This document shows positions 7,317 to 25,039 of a stretch of DNA of 28,312 nucleotides, piece by piece. The notes under the pieces were generated by a model. It made no database searches and was not told where the DNA came from. It saw nothing but the letters and a program-made list of their open reading frames with translations. Origin of the DNA: an uncultured Gammaproteobacteria bacterium (GTDB taxonomy: Bacteria > Patescibacteriota > Patescibacteriia > UBA2169); assembly GCA_964364395.1 (NCBI GenBank), contig CAYILY010000002.1, forward strand, positions 1-28,312. Reading direction: 5' to 3'. Positions within the stretch are counted from its first letter, which is position 1. Each line of letters starts with the position of its first letter. The position numbers and the translations under genes were made by a program.

Positions 7317-7353
7317 ACCTCACCCTAACCCTCTCCTTAGCAAAGGAGAGGGG
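7317..7353. repeat. CCCTCTCC-type palindromic element (intergenic copy)
   Basis: ACCTCACCCTAACCCTCTCCTTAGCAAAGGAGAGGGG; near-identical to the in-frame copy at 15681-15715. Confidence 0.85.
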
Positions 7354-7361
7354 ACTTATAG

Positions 7362-7396
7362 AAAAAAGGCCGCCTCGGTTTCTCCGGGGCGGTTTT
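7362..7396. terminator. Bidirectional intrinsic terminator
   Basis: AAAAAAGG-CCGCCTCGG/CCGGGGCGG-TTTT between convergent atpC and the 157-aa gene. Confidence 0.75.
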
Positions 7397-7422
7397 AGGT
7401 GCGGTTGTGTTTTTGGTTTGGC

Positions 7423-7896
7423 TCATTTTTTGGCCTTCTTGGAAAAGACCCGGACAATATAGGTTTCGTTATTGCTCCGATAGCGCCAAACCACGAGGTT
7501 TGAGTCAGCGCGGCCGCTGGCTACTCTGACGCGCCGCCAGTCACATTTTTCCAGTTTTGCCACCTGGTTGCCCTGGGCGGTAGTTTCAAACTGGACCAGA
7601 TACAGATCCAGCATATTCACTTTGCCCAAGCTGGCGGGGGCCGCCAAAGTTATCACTGAATCTGCTTCGGCTTCAGCGGGAAAGAACCGGAGTGAGAAAA
7701 CCGTTGGCTCGGTTTTTTTGGCTTTGGCCATGACATTGACCACTTGCCCGACTACAGTGTAGCTAGACGCGGTTGGGACTGCTTCAGCCTTATCCGTTGA
7801 TGCGGGATTGTCTGCCGCCTCGCTGGACAAGCCTACAGAAAAGCCGACTACTGCCAAAAAAGCTAAAGCTATAAGAGCGAAAATGCGCTTTTTCAT
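7423..7896 (-). CDS. Hypothetical exported protein (157 aa)
   Basis: Signal-peptide-like N-terminus MKKRIFALIALAFLAVVG; SD-like GGGGAG; terminator downstream. Confidence 0.8.
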   Translation of the reverse strand: MKKRIFALIALAFLAVVGFSVGLSSEAADNPASTDKAEAVPTASSYTVVGQVVNVMAKAKKTEPTVFSLRFFPAEAEADSVITLAAPASLGKVNMLDLYLVQFETTAQGNQVAKLEKCDWRRVRVASGRADSNLVVWRYRSNNETYIVRVFSKKAKK

Positions 7897-7991
7897 AAGC
7901 TCCCCACTTATGAAAAGAGTGATAGAAAGAACTCCGTTTATTGATAATGATTATTGATGTCGATAATTTCTATAGTATTATCGCCGCAGTA

Positions 7992-8018
7992 AATAAAAAT
8001 CACTCGGTAGTTCCGAGT
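7992..8018 (-). terminator. Intrinsic terminator of the 77-aa gene
   Basis: Minus strand ACTCGG-AACTA-CCGAGT followed by GATTTTTATTT. Confidence 0.6.
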
Positions 8019-8063
8019 AAGGCGAAAACTGAAAATATGTAAATGTTTGGGTTCGCATAAAAT

Positions 8064-20890: not shown

Positions 20891-20919
20891 ATCATACCAT
20901 ATATAGAAAATATTGTCAA
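20891..20919 (-). promoter_or_regulatory. Sigma70 promoter of cargo gene 2
   Basis: Minus strand TTGACA-17 nt-(TGG)TATGAT. Confidence 0.8.
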
Positions 20920-21043
20920 TATCAAAAATAGGCTTAAATTAGCCAATATAATTTCCCCAATTTTAGCCAAAAAGTATAGTATTTGGACTTCGTTTTTTGG
21001 AGAAACTATGATAAAATAAAGACAGGCAAAAGGAGGAAAATAT

Positions 21044-21331
21044 ATGACTAAAACCATGGAAATTATCAAGGAAAAAGCTGTGCCCATTCTCAAAGAAGCC
21101 GGGGTTACCCGTTCGGCTTTGTTTGGTTCGGTGGTGCGCGGGGAAGAAACCAAAGACAGCGATGTTGATATATTAATCCAGCCACCCGAGGGAATGTCCT
21201 TGTTTGGTTTCATTGGTTTAGAGCATAAACTTGAAGATGTTTTGGGCCGTAAGGTTGATCTGGTAAGTTATCGGGCGATTCACCCGGTGCTAAAAGATCA
21301 AATTTTAAGCGAACAAGTGCCTATTTTATGA
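21044..21331 (+). CDS. Minimal nucleotidyltransferase (MNT) antitoxin
   Basis: LFGSVVRGEE...SDVDIL motif; overlaps the HEPN gene by 4 bp. Confidence 0.92.
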   Translation: MTKTMEIIKEKAVPILKEAGVTRSALFGSVVRGEETKDSDVDILIQPPEGMSLFGFIGLEHKLEDVLGRKVDLVSYRAIHPVLKDQILSEQVPIL

Positions 21332-21675
21332 AAAAGACACCTAAAGTGTATTTATACGATATTATAGATTCAATCGGGTTGATTGAAGAATATGTTGATG
21401 GCAAAAGCAAAGATGACCTTCTGACCGAAAGACGGTTGCAAGATGTTATAGTTAGAAGGCTTCAGATTATCGGTGAAGCCGTAAACCGTATATCCGAAAT
21501 GTTCAAGGAAATTCCGACAGAACATCCGGAAATTCCCTGGCGAAAAATTAAGGGATTGCGCAATGTAGTCATACATGATTATGCTAAAATTGATTTTGCA
21601 TTAGTTTGGGATGTGATAAAGAAAGATTTACCAGAACTCAAAATCAATACCCAAAAAATTATGGAAAATTATTAA
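21328..21675 (+). CDS. HEPN (DUF86 / HepT-like) RNase toxin
   Basis: RRLQIIGEA...[17 protein letters not shown] (R-x4-H motif). Confidence 0.92.
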
Positions 21676-21676
21676 C

Positions 21677-24600
21677 ATGGCTAAAAAAGACACTAAAAAA
21701 GCCGCCCAAGCTTATGGTGCCGAGCAGATTACGGTGCTGGAAGGGCTTGATCCGGTGCGCAAGCGGCCGGGCATGTATATTGGCAACACCGCCAAAGAAG
21801 GCCTGCACCATTTGGTGTGGGAAGTGGTGGACAACTCCATTGACGAAGCCATGGCCGGGCATTGCGACACGATTACAATTTCTTTATTGCCAGATAACAT
21901 GGTGTCGGTCAGTGACAATGGCCGCGGCATTCCGGTGGATAAGCACAAGGGCGTGGGCGTTTCCGCGCTCGAAGTGGTTTTAACCAAACTGCATGCTGGC
22001 GGAAAATTCGGCCAGGGCGGTTATAAAGTTTCCGGCGGTTTGCATGGCGTGGGCGTTTCGGTGGTTAATGCTTTATCGGATTATTTAAAAGCTGAAGTGC
22101 GGCGCGATGGCAAGTTATGGGTGCAAGAATACAAGCGCGGCCAGCCGCAAAAAAATGTTAAAGCCGTCGGGAACGCCAAGGGCACGGGCACGACCATTAC
22201 TTACAAAGCTGATAGTTCGATTTTTACGACTTTGGAATATGATTTGCAGTATATTCTTGACCATATCCGCCAGCAAGCCTATCTAACCAAAGGCATCCGC
22301 ATTACTATTAAAGACGAACGCACGGACGAACACACCAGCTATACTTTCTATTTTGAAGGCGGCATTGCTTCTTATGTTAAACACTTGAACCGCATGCACA
22401 CCACTAAACACGAAAACGTGTTTTACGTGGAAAAGGCGGCCGAGGGCATTACCGTGGAAGTGGCCATGCAATATATTGAAGATTATAAAGAAACGGTTTT
22501 CAGTTTTGCCAATAATATTTTTACCACCGAAGGCGGCTCGCACCTGGTGGGTTTCCGGACGGCTTTGACGCGGACTTTAAACGCTTACGCGCGTAGCAAG
22601 AGTTTCTTGAAAGAAAAAGATGATAATTTGCAGGGTGAAGATTCGCGCGAAGGCTTAACCGCTATTATCAGCGTGAAAGTGCCGGAGCCGCAGTTTGAAG
22701 GCCAGACCAAAGCTAAATTAGGCAATGACGAAGTCCGGCCGATTGTGGATACCGTATTTTCCGAAACTTTAGCGATTTGGCTCGAGGAGCATCCACGGGA
22801 CGCCGAAGCGATTGTGGCTAAGTGTTTACTGGCGGCCCAAGCCCGCAAAGCCGCGCGCGCGGCGCGCGACACGGTTCTGCGTAAAGGCGCTTTAGATGGT
22901 TTTGCTTTGCCGGGTAAACTGGCTGACTGTTCTAGTAAAGACCCTAAAGAAAGTGAATTATATATTGTCGAGGGCGACTCGGCCGGCGGCTGTTTTTCGG
23001 GTGATACCGAAATTGCTTTGGCTGATGGAAGAAATATTACCTTTAAAAATTTGATTGAGGAGGACAAGCAAGGCAAAAAGAATTATTGCTATACCATTAA
23101 ATCTGACGGCACGGTCGGCATGGCGCTTATTAAACATCCTCGTTTGACTTACAACCATCGTGAAGTTGTTAAAGTTATAATTGATAACGGCCAAGAGATT
23201 GTTTGTACGCCTGGCCACGAATTTATGTTGCGCGACGGTTCCTACAAAGAAGCTAAAAATTTACAGCCATCTGATTCATTAATGCCTTTGCGGAAAAAGA
23301 TTTCAGCAATCGGCGGAAGGATTACCATTGTCGGCTATGAAATGGTTTTAAACCCGGCTACGCATAAGTGGATTTTTACGCATCTCTTGGCCGATAGGCA
23401 CAATTTAGAAAAAGAGATTTACCAAGAGGGAGATGGAAGCCACAAGCACCATAAAGATTTTAATAAGCTTAATAACAACCCAGATAATATAGTTAGGATG
23501 TCTCAAGAAAGTCATCTCCAGCTTCATCGCGGCCTGTTATCTAAAACACTCCATCGGCCGGACGTAAAGGAGAAGGTGGCGAGACTGCATCAAACTCCGG
23601 AGTTTCGCCAGAAGATTCGCCAGGCCATGCTTAAACCCGAGATGCGCCAGATGTTGAGCGAACGAGCCAAAAAACAATGGGAAAATGAAGAGTACAAGCG
23701 GTATATGGCCAATAAGTTTTTGGAATTCTATAAAAATAATGCTGAATTTCGAGCCGCGAACAGCCAGCTTTTGAATAATGAGCAGAGAAAATATTGGAAC
23801 AGCCAGAACAATCGCCAGAAACAGTCAGCCAAAGTAAAACAGTTTTTTGAGAATAATCCGGATAGGCGAAAAGAGCTTCACGAGGCAGCTCTCCAACAGT
23901 GGTCTGACGGGAATTTGCGGCAGTGGCGCAGCGAGAAAACAAAAGAACAGTGGACCGATGAATTCAGACAGAAACGTCGGCAAGCATATAACAGAACTTA
24001 TTTGGATAAGGCCTTGTCTGTTTTGTATAAAATATTGGCACATAAAGGCTTAATTGATAAAGCCGAATATCAGCGCGTGCGGTTGGAAGCCAACGACAAG
24101 AGCCTGCTTCGTTACAGGACAATCTGTGAGCGATTTTTCGGCGGCGACGAATCGGTAATGATTGAAGCCGTGCAGAACTACAATCACAATATAAAAGCGG
24201 TAGTGCCAGTAAGAGAAAAGATTGATGTTTATGATTTTGAAGTTGGGGGTACGCACAATTTTGCTTTAGCCAGCGGCATTTTTGTGCATAATAGCGCTAA
24301 GCAAGGCCGCGACCGAAGATTCCAGGCTATCTTGCCGCTTCGCGGAAAAATTCTAAACGTGGAACGCGCTCGCATCGACAAAATGCTGGCCAACAATGAA
24401 GTGAAATCTTTGGTCATTGCCATGGGCACCAATATCGGCGAAATGTTTAATATTGATGATCTCCGTTATGACCGGATTATCATTATGACTGATGCGGACG
24501 TGGATGGCGCGCATATTCGTACTTTGCTCCTGACTTTATTTTTCCGCTATTTCCCAACCATTATTACCCAAGGCCATTTATATATTGCCTGCCCGCCGCT

Positions 24601-25039
24601 TTATCGCGTGGAAAAGGGGAGAGAAGTAAATTATATTTATGATGATGCGGAGTTGGATAAATTAAAGACAAAGTATTTGGTGGATGCGAAGACCCCCTCT
24701 AACTCCCCCTTAGTAAGGGGGAGAAATAAGAAAGCTCCCCTCCTTGCTAAGGAGGGGTCGGGGGAGGTTGAGAGCGATGATGCAGAGGAAGGCGAAACCA
24801 TTGTGACCGAAGCGCATGGCCGCATTAATATTCAACGCTACAAAGGTTTGGGTGAAATGAACCCGCAGCAGCTTTGGGAAACTACCATGGATCCGCAAGC
24901 GCGCATGATGAAGCAGGTGACGGTGCTGGACGCGGAAAAAGCCAACGAAATATTTGATATTTTGATGGGCGTGGAAGTGGCTCCGCGTAAGAAGTTTATC
25001 CATACCCATGCGAAGGATGTGAAGAATTTGGATATATAG
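21677..25039 (+). CDS. gyrB: DNA gyrase subunit B containing an intein
   Basis: [26 protein letters not shown]|[36 protein letters not shown]. Topoisomerase IV parE is not formally excluded. Confidence 0.95.
22991..24292 (+). mobile_element. 434-aa intein with an HNH-type homing endonuclease
   Basis: Starts CFSGDT after EGDSAGG; ends VYDFEV..THNFAL..IFVHN before Ser; internal [14 protein letters not shown] motif. Confidence 0.95.
24691..24769. repeat. In-frame inverted doublet of CCCTC-type units in gyrB
   Basis: GACCCCCTCTAACTCCCCCTTAGTAAGGGGGAG ... CTCCCCTCCTTGCTAAGGAGGGGTCGGGGGAGG (encodes [11 protein letters not shown]...[11 protein letters not shown]). Confidence 0.88.

What the first reader, a model, noticed from the sequence alone, without database searches (positions are those of the whole stretch)
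7317..24769. Palindromic DNA elements translated in-frame inside essential proteins (PcrA-like, PheT twice, GyrB)
Seen: a ~35-bp unit (RCCYCMCCCYARCCCTCYCCTTRGYAARGGRGAGGG-like) occurs once intergenically (7317-7353) and four times within ORFs without breaking frame: 12630-12662, 15681-15715, 16208-16296 (inverted doublet) and 24691-24769 (inverted doublet). The encoded peptides are similar and Pro/Ser/Gly-rich ([44 protein letters not shown]). Established: coding-region palindromic insertions are known from Rickettsia (RPEs). Inference: a selfish repeat colonising surface loops of housekeeping enzymes, here four insertions among three genes in 12 kb.
Basis: partly seen in the sequence, partly recalled or inferred. 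Interest (0 to 1): 0.7.

Follow-up and report, generated by a model that had tools for sequence, protein, structure and literature searches.

The report
Triplex-type selfish repeats translated inside essential proteins
A 35-base folded DNA repeat, of the same kind as the unexplained BoxC/TMECO "triplex" repeats of E. coli, has been inserted in frame into dozens of housekeeping genes of a tiny groundwater bacterium, where it apparently persists as extra disordered protein loops, and the same repeat brackets every DUF559 nuclease gene in that genome.

Summary
All five sites hold the same roughly 35-nt unit, and the four in-gene sites read through in frame.

Alignments with orthologues show clean insertions in PheT (two sites), GyrB and an AddA-like helicase-nuclease. 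A predicted PheT structure loses confidence only at the two inserts and one other short loop (688-695).

The window is a sample of a genome-wide pattern. This 0.77-Mb groundwater CPR-like genome has 63 such units. Of these, 42 lie in frame in 31 genes, including PolA, SecA, TopA, TsaD, NusA and GltX.

The unit is an intrastrand triplex motif: pyrimidine arm, loop, purine arm, loop, then a G-rich third strand. It shares a 19-nt core with E. coli TMECO/BoxC (PMC4666352). That paper describes the motif as always intergenic and found no mobility gene near it.

The same 35-mer occurs in Cyanobacteria, Patescibacteria, Planctomycetota and Proteobacteria, mostly outside long open reading frames there.

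All three DUF559 (Vsr-like) nuclease genes of this genome are bracketed by the unit, as are 17 of 18 across this genome and its relatives. However, some repeat-rich relatives have no detectable DUF559, so mobilisation by this nuclease is unproven.

This scan has found DUF559-plus-hairpin cassettes in frame in housekeeping genes of other genomes before.

Verdict: an RPE-like selfish repeat and a new variant of a known kind. The mechanism of spread remains open.

The parts
7316..7352 (.). Solo triplex-motif (TM) unit, C-rich strand on +. It abuts the atpC stop codon (7314-7316) and is followed by an ordinary terminator hairpin at about 7366-7395.
   Evidence: Read on the minus strand it is CCCTCTCCTT/TGCT/AAGGAGAGGG/TTA/GGGTGAGGTC.
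12631..12662 (.). Decayed solo TM unit with stem mismatches, in frame in the PD-(D/E)XK nuclease domain region of the helicase-nuclease. It encodes TPSDSPLVRV.
   Evidence: 20.2 bits, E=4e-4. It sits in a variable loop in the orthologue alignment.
15680..15715 (.). Solo TM unit in frame in PheT (residues about 278-290, RTSPQPSPWKGEG).
   Evidence: It is absent from 18 relatives and pLDDT is below 50 at residues 279-289. Unit borders of 15681/2-15715 are set by unrelated metagenome contigs.
16207..16296 (.). Inverted TM doublet (units 16207-16242 and 16261-16296, third strands facing outward), 90 nt, in frame in the B5-domain loop of PheT.
   Evidence: pLDDT is below 50 at residues 460-480.
24691..24769 (.). 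Inverted TM doublet (24691-24723 and 24737-24769) in frame in the variable linker between the Toprim and C-terminal domains of GyrB. It encodes [26 protein letters not shown].
   Evidence: It is absent from 19 relatives, including one whose matched C-terminal part of GyrB (query residues 873-1120) is 83% identical. A near-identical doublet peptide occurs in TsaD on contig C17.
10210..13233 (+). Host gene: UvrD-type helicase with a C-terminal PD-(D/E)XK nuclease domain (AddA-like), 1007 aa.
   Evidence: PF00580, PF13361, PF12705.
14847..17207 (+). Host gene: phenylalanyl-tRNA synthetase beta chain (PheT), 786 aa. It is the only copy in the genome.
21677..25039 (+). Host gene: GyrB, 1120 aa. It also carries an intein at residues 446-872. 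It is the only copy found in the genome.

Best explanation
The units are non-autonomous copies of a selfish, structure-forming DNA repeat of the intrastrand-triplex-motif family (BoxC/PIT/TMECO type).

Each unit consists of a pyrimidine arm, a loop, the complementary purine arm, a short loop, and a G-rich third strand. The third strand mirrors the purine arm under purine-motif rules (G opposite G-C; A or T opposite A-T).

Copies have been inserted many times into this compact genome, which is 87% coding. Inserts that land in genes survive only when three conditions hold: the added length keeps the frame, the reading frame of the unit has no stop codon, and the site is a tolerant loop. The stop condition matters because the common TTAGTAA-type loop carries stops in 2 of the 6 frames.

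Such copies are then simply transcribed and translated as 11-27 extra Pro/Ser/Gly/Arg-rich residues. This is the same outcome as for Rickettsia palindromic elements.

What is shown: insertion relative to orthologues, genome-wide spread, structure-preserving covariation, and tight linkage of the units to DUF559 nuclease genes.

What is inferred: that the peptides are present in the mature proteins, and the mechanism of copying. My preferred guess for copying is a break or nick made at the folded DNA by a DUF559 nuclease, followed by repair from another copy.
For: Repeat is real and structured. A triad-rule search finds 69 detections (63 loci) in the genome and 0 in a shuffled genome. The hairpin shows compensatory changes: 44 double-change cells against 16 expected, with 0 of 500 shuffles as high. 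The flank covaries with the arm across 14 arm types, with 0 of 10,000 permutations as good.

Insertions are clean. This holds for PheT at two sites, for GyrB and the helicase, and for TsaD at three loops.

Independent hits on the same loops. G003 and G008 carry other TM subfamilies at the PheT doublet loop, while their congeners are empty there.

Scale. 42 of 63 loci lie in frame in 31 genes, and 20 hosts were identified by Pfam.

Same element in unrelated proteins. Near-identical doublets occur in the same frame in GyrB and TsaD. MnmA carries a hybrid doublet with the same first unit (TPSNSPLARGR), and PriA carries that unit alone.

Structure. The PheT model has mean pLDDT 84, with values below 50 at the two inserts and at one other short loop (688-695); both inserts are coil.

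Single-copy hosts. The interrupted genes are the only copies found in the genome.

Distribution. Counts among relatives are patchy, from 0 to 68 per genome. The exact 35-mer occurs across phyla.

Linkage to DUF559. It holds for 3 of 3 genes here and 17 of 18 overall, typically as inverted ends.
Against: No filled-versus-empty allele pair at nucleotide resolution was found, so neither a target duplication nor a precise insertion event is documented.

No transposase, RAYT or TnpB was found.

Relatives rich in units but with no DUF559 match exist: G003 has 48 units and is 98% complete; G016 has 24 units and is 100% complete.

There are no RNA or protein data showing that the peptides are retained.

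Gene calls outside the window are my own codon-usage calls, not curated annotation.
Confidence: 0.75

Rival explanations
1. The units spread without any dedicated enzyme. Folded triplex or hairpin DNA stalls replication and provokes breaks, and repair copies a unit from elsewhere as templated filler or by gene conversion. Under this view DUF559 genes are passengers, or preferred landing sites, rather than the mobilising enzyme.
For: TM-rich genomes with no DUF559 match exist. Only 2 of 116 cross-phylum loci have DUF559 next to the unit. The DUF559 tree does not track the type of flanking repeat (labels as clustered in 17 of 200 shuffles). Holder et al. link TMECO sites to local genome instability and found no mobility genes (PMC4666352). 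A later check recorded in the scan's note e1-2979616 pointed out that lone end hairpins argue the nuclease may be a passenger.
Against: 17 of 18 full-length DUF559 genes have a unit within 40 nt, where about 1% would be expected from unit density. Eleven have units on both sides in inverted orientation, and all three ORFs in this genome end inside a unit. E. coli ycjD shows the same arrangement.
Confidence: 0.3
2. The units are host-useful signals, for example transcription terminators, mRNA stabilisers, or nucleoid or replication landmarks. Under this view the coding copies are kept for a DNA- or RNA-level role.
For: Several non-coding copies sit directly behind stop codons in operons: atpC at 7316, and dnaK, dnaJ and others on contig C1. 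Perfect stems are kept even in coding copies.
Against: Counts range from 0 to 68 per genome among members of one family, and two genomes of one genus have none. Two thirds of copies lie inside genes, at different loops in different genera. A normal terminator follows the atpC copy anyway.
Confidence: 0.1
3. The inserts are removed before the protein is finished, as an intron-like RNA element or an intein-like peptide.
For: None directly. GyrB does carry a true intein elsewhere, so splicing elements occur in this genome.
Against: The inserts are 11-27 residues or 35-90 nt, far below the size of any self-splicing intron or intein. No conserved Cys/Ser/Thr...Asn junction residues are seen. The frame is always kept open, which would not be needed if the element were excised at the RNA level.
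Confidence: 0.03
4. The pattern is an artefact: mis-assembly through repeats, or chance low-complexity sequence.
For: Logan contigs of the source metagenomes break inside the PheT doublet.
Against: Both flanks of every in-gene copy belong to the same conserved gene, in the same frame. Independent runs hold contigs that cross the 15681-15715 unit with no differences (records 5 and 12). No such units occur in a shuffled genome.
Confidence: 0.02

Closest known systems
Intrastrand triplex motifs of bacteria: BoxC / PIT elements / TMECO (Holder et al. 2015, PMC4666352, which cites Hoyne et al. 2000)
   Same: The three-block architecture and size (about 36 nt) are the same. Both are G/C-rich and follow class II purine-motif triads. 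The purine arm, loop and third strand share the 19-mer GGAGAGGGTTAGGGTGAGG between window unit 7316-7352 and the E. coli K-12 copy next to ycjD. Both are abundant in Cyanobacteria.
   Different: TMECO is reported as always intergenic and never associated with mobility functions. Here two thirds of the copies are translated inside genes, and the units bracket DUF559 nuclease genes.
Rickettsia palindromic elements (RPE; Ogata et al. 2000, from my own knowledge and as cited in PMC10969869 and PMC1779305)
   Same: Both are palindromic repeats inserted in frame in many unrelated, often essential, genes of a small genome. Both are read through as extra peptide segments, and no transposase is known for either.
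   Different: There is no sequence relationship. RPEs are about 100-150 bp, whereas these units are 35 nt or 75-90-nt doublets. The triplex-type third strand and the DUF559 linkage are not features of RPEs. The host is a CPR-like groundwater bacterium.
REP/REPIN elements with RAYT transposases (PMC3116915, PMC3733652)
   Same: Both are short GC-rich hairpin repeats that occur as singlets and inverted doublets. Both flank a small single-copy enzyme gene, with far more enzyme-less copies than enzyme genes.
   Different: No RAYT (PF01797) was found in this genome. There is no consistent GTAG or CGTC tag. REPs are extragenic. The candidate enzyme here has a Vsr-like PD-(D/E)XK fold, not a Y1 transposase fold.
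DUF559-plus-hairpin cassettes read in frame in leuS, valS, aroC and other genes, noted earlier by this scan (e1-703951, e1-2979616, e1-2067887, e1-5270165)
   Same: The same kind of end repeats, the same nuclease family and the same habit of surviving in frame in housekeeping genes.
   Different: In this window only nuclease-less solo units and doublets sit in the genes. The three nuclease genes of this genome are free-standing, between genes. The phylum is different.
Homing endonuclease genes of the Vsr-like EDxHD family (I-Bth0305I; PMC3239194, PMC2677866)
   Same: Both involve a small PD-(D/E)XK/Vsr-fold nuclease associated with selfish insertions in conserved genes.
   Different: Those enzymes reside in introns or inteins that are spliced out. 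Here there is no splicing element, and no cleavage activity or target is known.

Membership tests
Intrastrand triplex motif repeats (BoxC/PIT/TMECO) | Three consecutive blocks: pyrimidine arm, complementary purine arm, and a third strand obeying triad rules (G.G-C, A.A-T or T.A-T), joined by short loops. | tested here: met
   69 detections with arms of 7-10 nt and at most 1 bad triad, against 0 in a shuffled genome. Six of the seven units in the window pass this test; the decayed copy at 12631 does not.
Intrastrand triplex motif repeats (BoxC/PIT/TMECO) | Sequence likeness to the E. coli TMECO consensus. | tested here: met
   The E. coli K-12 copy reads CCCTCGCCCC/TCT/GGGGAGAGGG/TTA/GGGTGAGGGG. 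The window unit 7316-7352 reads ...AAGGAGAGGG/TTA/GGGTGAGGTC. The control oligo in PMC4666352 section 17 agrees.
Intrastrand triplex motif repeats (BoxC/PIT/TMECO) | Intergenic location, as described for E. coli. | tested here: not met
   42 of 63 loci lie inside predicted CDS. This is a habit of the E. coli copies rather than a structural criterion.
Intrastrand triplex motif repeats (BoxC/PIT/TMECO) | Forms a stable triplex in vitro (CD or NMR). | not testable with these tools
   This needs oligonucleotide biophysics.
Rickettsia palindromic elements | Sequence homology to RPE-1 to RPE-8, in a Rickettsiales host. | not tested
   No RPE sequence was compared. The units are 35 nt, against the 100-150 bp I recall for RPEs, and the host is a CPR-like groundwater bacterium, so I treat this as an analogy only.
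Rickettsia palindromic elements | In-frame insertion in unrelated protein genes without disrupting the ORF. | tested here: met
REPIN-RAYT system | A RAYT (Y1 transposase, PF01797) gene flanked by the repeats. | tested here: not met
   No PF01797 match in the genome (89% complete), while the control genomes give matches.
MITE | Terminal inverted repeats, a target-site duplication and a cognate transposase. | tested here: inconclusive
   Doublets have inverted ends. No empty site is close enough to read a duplication. No DDE_Tnp_1 or TnpB was found.
DUF559-bounded cassette (nuclease plus TM ends) | A DUF559 ORF bracketed by inverted TM units. | tested here: met
   This is met for the genome's three DUF559 genes and for 17 of 18 in this genome plus relatives. 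The window itself holds no DUF559 gene, only nuclease-less units.
Intein or self-splicing intron | A splicing domain or ribozyme of sufficient size with conserved junction residues. | tested here: not met
   The inserts are 11-27 aa. No Pfam splicing domain lies at these sites. The true GyrB intein lies elsewhere, at residues 446-872.

The most novel reading that the evidence does not exclude
The triplex-motif repeats found across bacteria (BoxC/TMECO in E. coli, and the abundant G/C-rich motifs of Cyanobacteria) may be the non-autonomous partners of DUF559 Vsr-like nucleases. That would make a nuclease-and-repeat mobile system analogous to RAYT/REPIN, in which the folded triplex or hairpin is what the nuclease recognises. 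In gene-dense CPR genomes, the units would then survive mainly as translated loops in essential proteins. This would explain a class of repeats for which the cited 2015 study found no mobility function, and it would assign a role to a large domain family of unknown function.
Probability: 0.3. Interest if true: 0.8.

Novelty: new variant of a known kind. Interest (0 to 1): 0.6.

Why it matters
It links two things that the papers I searched treat separately. One is the pan-bacterial triplex-motif repeats, described as intergenic and immobile. The other is RPE-style colonisation of protein-coding genes.

It shows that about 4% of the genes of a minimal CPR-like genome, including PolA, GyrB, SecA, TopA, NusA and several tRNA-related enzymes, carry such inserts. 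This bears on how CPR proteins acquire their many unexplained insertions. It also affects annotation and structure prediction of these proteins.

The tight DUF559-repeat linkage, also visible at E. coli ycjD, gives a concrete and testable candidate for the enzyme behind these repeats.

Tried and rejected
Known mobilising enzymes. Searches of the genome for RAYT (PF01797), TnpB (PF07282) and DDE_Tnp_1 (PF01609) found none.

Phage vector. The exact 35-mer pattern has no match in 2.9 million viral contigs.

Empty-site alleles. Logan contigs of four groundwater runs showed no joint skipping a unit. They showed only depth spikes and loose ends at the unit borders. A metagenome scan for PheT found no close strain: hits that cover either insert site are 29-62% identical, and a single 100%-identical fragment covers only residues 686-786.

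Nuclease-repeat co-evolution. A tree of 21 DUF559 proteins is poorly resolved. Repeat type is not significantly clustered on it, with 17 of 200 shuffles as low, so this is inconclusive.

Cross-phylum DUF559 adjacency. Only 2 of 116 loci show it.

Literature. I found no paper in the searchable library describing in-frame triplex or palindromic repeats in CPR, or a DUF559-repeat link.

An early simple 'mirror repeat' reading left systematic T-to-A mismatches. I replaced it with purine-motif triad rules, which fit.

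
Full report
**1. The observation**

Reading the five places shows the same unit each time.
- One copy starts at or right after the atpC stop codon (7316/7317-7353).
- One decayed copy lies at 12631-12662.
- One copy lies at 15681-15715.
- Two inverted doublets lie at 16207-16296 and 24691-24769.

A degenerate 24-nt core pattern gives 4 hits in the window and none in 100 dinucleotide-preserving shuffles.

The in-gene copies lie in three long uninterrupted ORFs:
- a UvrD-type helicase with a C-terminal PD-(D/E)XK nuclease domain (10210-13233);
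- PheT (14847-17207);
- GyrB (21677-25039), which also carries a true intein at residues 446-872.

**2. Are they insertions?**

I fetched the orthologous genes from up to 30 related genomes and aligned them.
- PheT: both sites are clean insertions against 18 relatives.
- GyrB: the doublet sits in a length-variable charged linker. It is absent from 19 relatives, including one whose matched C-terminal part of GyrB (query residues 873-1120) is 83% identical.
- Helicase: the short unit sits in a variable loop of the nuclease domain.
- PheT doublet loop: two other genera (G003, G008) carry a single unit of a different subfamily at the same loop, while their congeners (G009, G002) have the short, empty loop. 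That requires at least three gains, or many more losses.
- TsaD: this gene has four units in this genome. The same three loops are filled in some relatives by this or by other repeat families, and are short in others.

PheT and GyrB are the only copies found in the genome.

An AlphaFold2 model of PheT has mean pLDDT 84. It falls below 50 at residues 279-289 and 460-480, which are the two inserts and are predicted as coil between folded elements, and at one other short loop (688-695).

**3. Genome-wide picture**

The window belongs to a 0.77-Mb, 103-contig, 47% GC genome that is 89% complete. It comes from a groundwater metagenome.

A profile search found 51 units. A structure-rule search found 69 detections at 63 loci, against none in a shuffled genome.

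Using my own codon-usage gene calls (87% coding), the 63 loci break down as follows:
- 42 lie inside 31 ORFs in an open frame;
- 6 overlap a gene's 3' end;
- 2 overlap a 5' end;
- 13 are intergenic.

Hosts identified by Pfam include PolA, SecA (2 units), TopA, GuaA, LepA, ComEC, PriA, a Mur ligase (2), GltX, NusA, Ddl, RarA/MgsA, SecF, TsaD (4), MnmA (2), a VirD4-like ATPase, a methyltransferase and a glycosyltransferase.

Near-identical doublets are read in the same frame in GyrB and TsaD. MnmA carries a hybrid doublet with the same first unit, and PriA carries that unit alone. The window's four in-gene sites (six units) are therefore a local sample of a genome-wide habit.

**4. What the unit is**

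Read on the G-rich strand, every unit has five parts: a pyrimidine arm, a loop (often TTACTAA or TTAGTAA), the complementary purine arm, a 2-4-nt loop, and a G-rich third strand.

The third strand mirrors the purine arm. It has G opposite G-C pairs and A or T opposite A-T pairs. These are the triads of a purine-motif (class II) intrastrand triplex.
- Across at least 14 arm variants the flank changes together with the arm (0 of 10,000 permutations as good).
- The hairpin itself shows compensatory changes (44 double-change cells against 16 in shuffles, 0 of 500 shuffles as high).

A note from an earlier agent of this scan pointed me to the BoxC/PIT/TMECO repeats. The paper on them, Holder et al. 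[quoted passage not shown] It is shown by CD and NMR to fold as a triplex. The paper states that it is 'always located intergenically' in E. coli, and that no transposase or integrase remnants were ever found nearby.

The E. coli K-12 copy I read shares the 19-mer GGAGAGGGTTAGGGTGAGG with the window's unit at 7316-7352. So the repeat is a member of a described family. What is different here is where it lives.

**5. Distribution**

- The exact 35-mer, with six degenerate positions, occurs in more than 116 stretches of the species-representative genome collection. Most are in Cyanobacteria (Microcoleus, Nostoc, Tychonema, Anabaena, Scytonema). Others are in Patescibacteria, Planctomycetota, Ignavibacteriales, Chitinophagales, Bdellovibrionales, Marinomonas and Psychrobacter.
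- In those loci only 7 of 119 units lie within an open frame that extends at least 60 codons on both sides. Two of the seven loci are titled Patescibacteria. Translation inside genes therefore looks like a consequence of life in a very compact genome.
- A covariance model built from this genome's units gives 0 to 68 matches per genome among 31 relatives. Both genomes of one genus have none, and counts within another genus range from 1 to 48. The model is biased towards this genome's subfamilies.
- In the source metagenomes the contig depth rises four- to ten-fold exactly over the units. Dozens of unrelated contigs share only positions 15681/2-15715, which delimits the unit.
- There is no match in viral contigs.

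**6. The nuclease link**

The genome has three DUF559 genes, and all three are bracketed by units.
- One lies between two doublets inside the dnaK-dnaJ operon (contig C1, 24605-24985).
- One has a doublet upstream and a decayed unit downstream (contig C55).
- One lies between two inverted units (contig C3).

All three ORFs run into a unit. For the C1 gene, the stop codon falls in the hairpin loop.

Among 31 genomes, 12 have DUF559. Of 18 full-length genes, 17 have a unit within 40 nt, and 11 have units on both sides. The usual arrangement is as inverted ends with the hairpins outermost. From the density of units, about 1% would be expected by chance.

E. coli ycjD, a DUF559 gene, ends in a TM-like hairpin with its stop codon in the loop. 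A full TMECO lies 168 nt downstream.

The closest solved structure is 3HRL, annotated only as an endonuclease-like protein.

Evidence against a simple 'DUF559 moves the units' model:
- G003 (48 units, 98% complete) and G016 (24 units, 100% complete) have no DUF559 match.
- Only 2 of 116 cross-phylum loci have the gene next to the unit.
- The DUF559 tree does not significantly track repeat type.
- Nuclease-less doublets have the opposite polarity, with third strands outward, from the ends of the cassettes. They are therefore not simple internal deletions of a cassette.

**7. Mechanism**

Shown:
- repeated insertion;
- structure-preserving evolution of the repeat;
- survival in frame in loops of single-copy essential genes;
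- linkage to DUF559.

Inferred:
- The units are translated and retained. Nothing of intron or intein size or signature is present.
- Selection filters insertions for three properties: an added length divisible by three, one of the four stop-free frames, and a permissive loop.
- Copying involves breaks at the folded DNA that are repaired from another copy, with DUF559 as the best candidate for making the break.

I put about 0.75 on the selfish-insertion and translation reading, and about 0.3 on DUF559 being the mobilising enzyme.

**8. Novelty**

In-frame palindromic repeats are known from Rickettsia, and the triplex repeat family is known. I found no paper in the searchable library describing these repeats inside genes, in CPR bacteria, or linked to DUF559.

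This scan has, however, already reported DUF559-plus-hairpin cassettes in frame in leuS, valS and other genes of other genomes. It has also reported gene-less copies of such repeats in essential genes.

I therefore rate this a new variant of a known kind, of moderate to good interest.

Noticed in passing
window 23012-24292 (GyrB residues 446-872): GyrB carries a full-size intein (Pfam Intein_splicing) in addition to the repeat doublet, so one essential gene hosts two kinds of selfish insert.
   Followed up: no
L042, L045, L059, L060 (helicase-nuclease orthologues of G004, G008, G005, G001): The same nuclease-domain loop that holds the decayed unit at 12631 carries much longer, unrelated inserts in relatives. 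These encode peptides such as ...HPEQA...AVKDL...SSASPQNDG, which look like a second translated repeat family.
   Followed up: no
L296-L309 (TsaD of this genome and 13 relatives): Three loops of TsaD are filled again and again in different genera, by triplex-motif units or by at least two other repeat-like families, and are short in the remaining genomes.
   Followed up: partly
L219 5195-5420 (E. coli K-12, fabI-ycjD region): The DUF559 gene ycjD has its stop codon in the loop of a TM-like hairpin, and a complete TMECO lies 168 nt downstream. The TMECO paper reported no mobility-related genes near these repeats.
   Followed up: partly
L193 = G012:C2:10787-14092: In relative G012, a DUF559 cassette with inverted triplex-motif ends sits between pheT and the helicase-nuclease gene, the same neighbourhood as in the window.
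   Followed up: no
G000 contig C1 23200-25960: Four doublets of 90-100 nt occupy successive intergenic gaps of the dnaK...dnaJ operon. Three of them start right behind a stop codon, and one pair encloses the DUF559 gene.
   Followed up: partly
window 13267-13845, 25036-25084, 25576-25983: A separate repeat family built of ATTCGGAT-like words, with copies of up to 116 nt, occurs in direct and inverted orientation in intergenic gaps.
   Followed up: no
window 2557-2643, 4989-5023, 5389-5447, 6796-6897: Arrays of 8-nt words (AAACTATT / TTTAATAG type) form inverted 27-39-nt arms between the atp genes.
   Followed up: no
window 19864-20117 and 20877-21130: A 254-nt direct repeat at 90% identity, with further duplicated segments at 18958-19036/20110-20188 and 19081-19126/20228-20273.
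   Followed up: no
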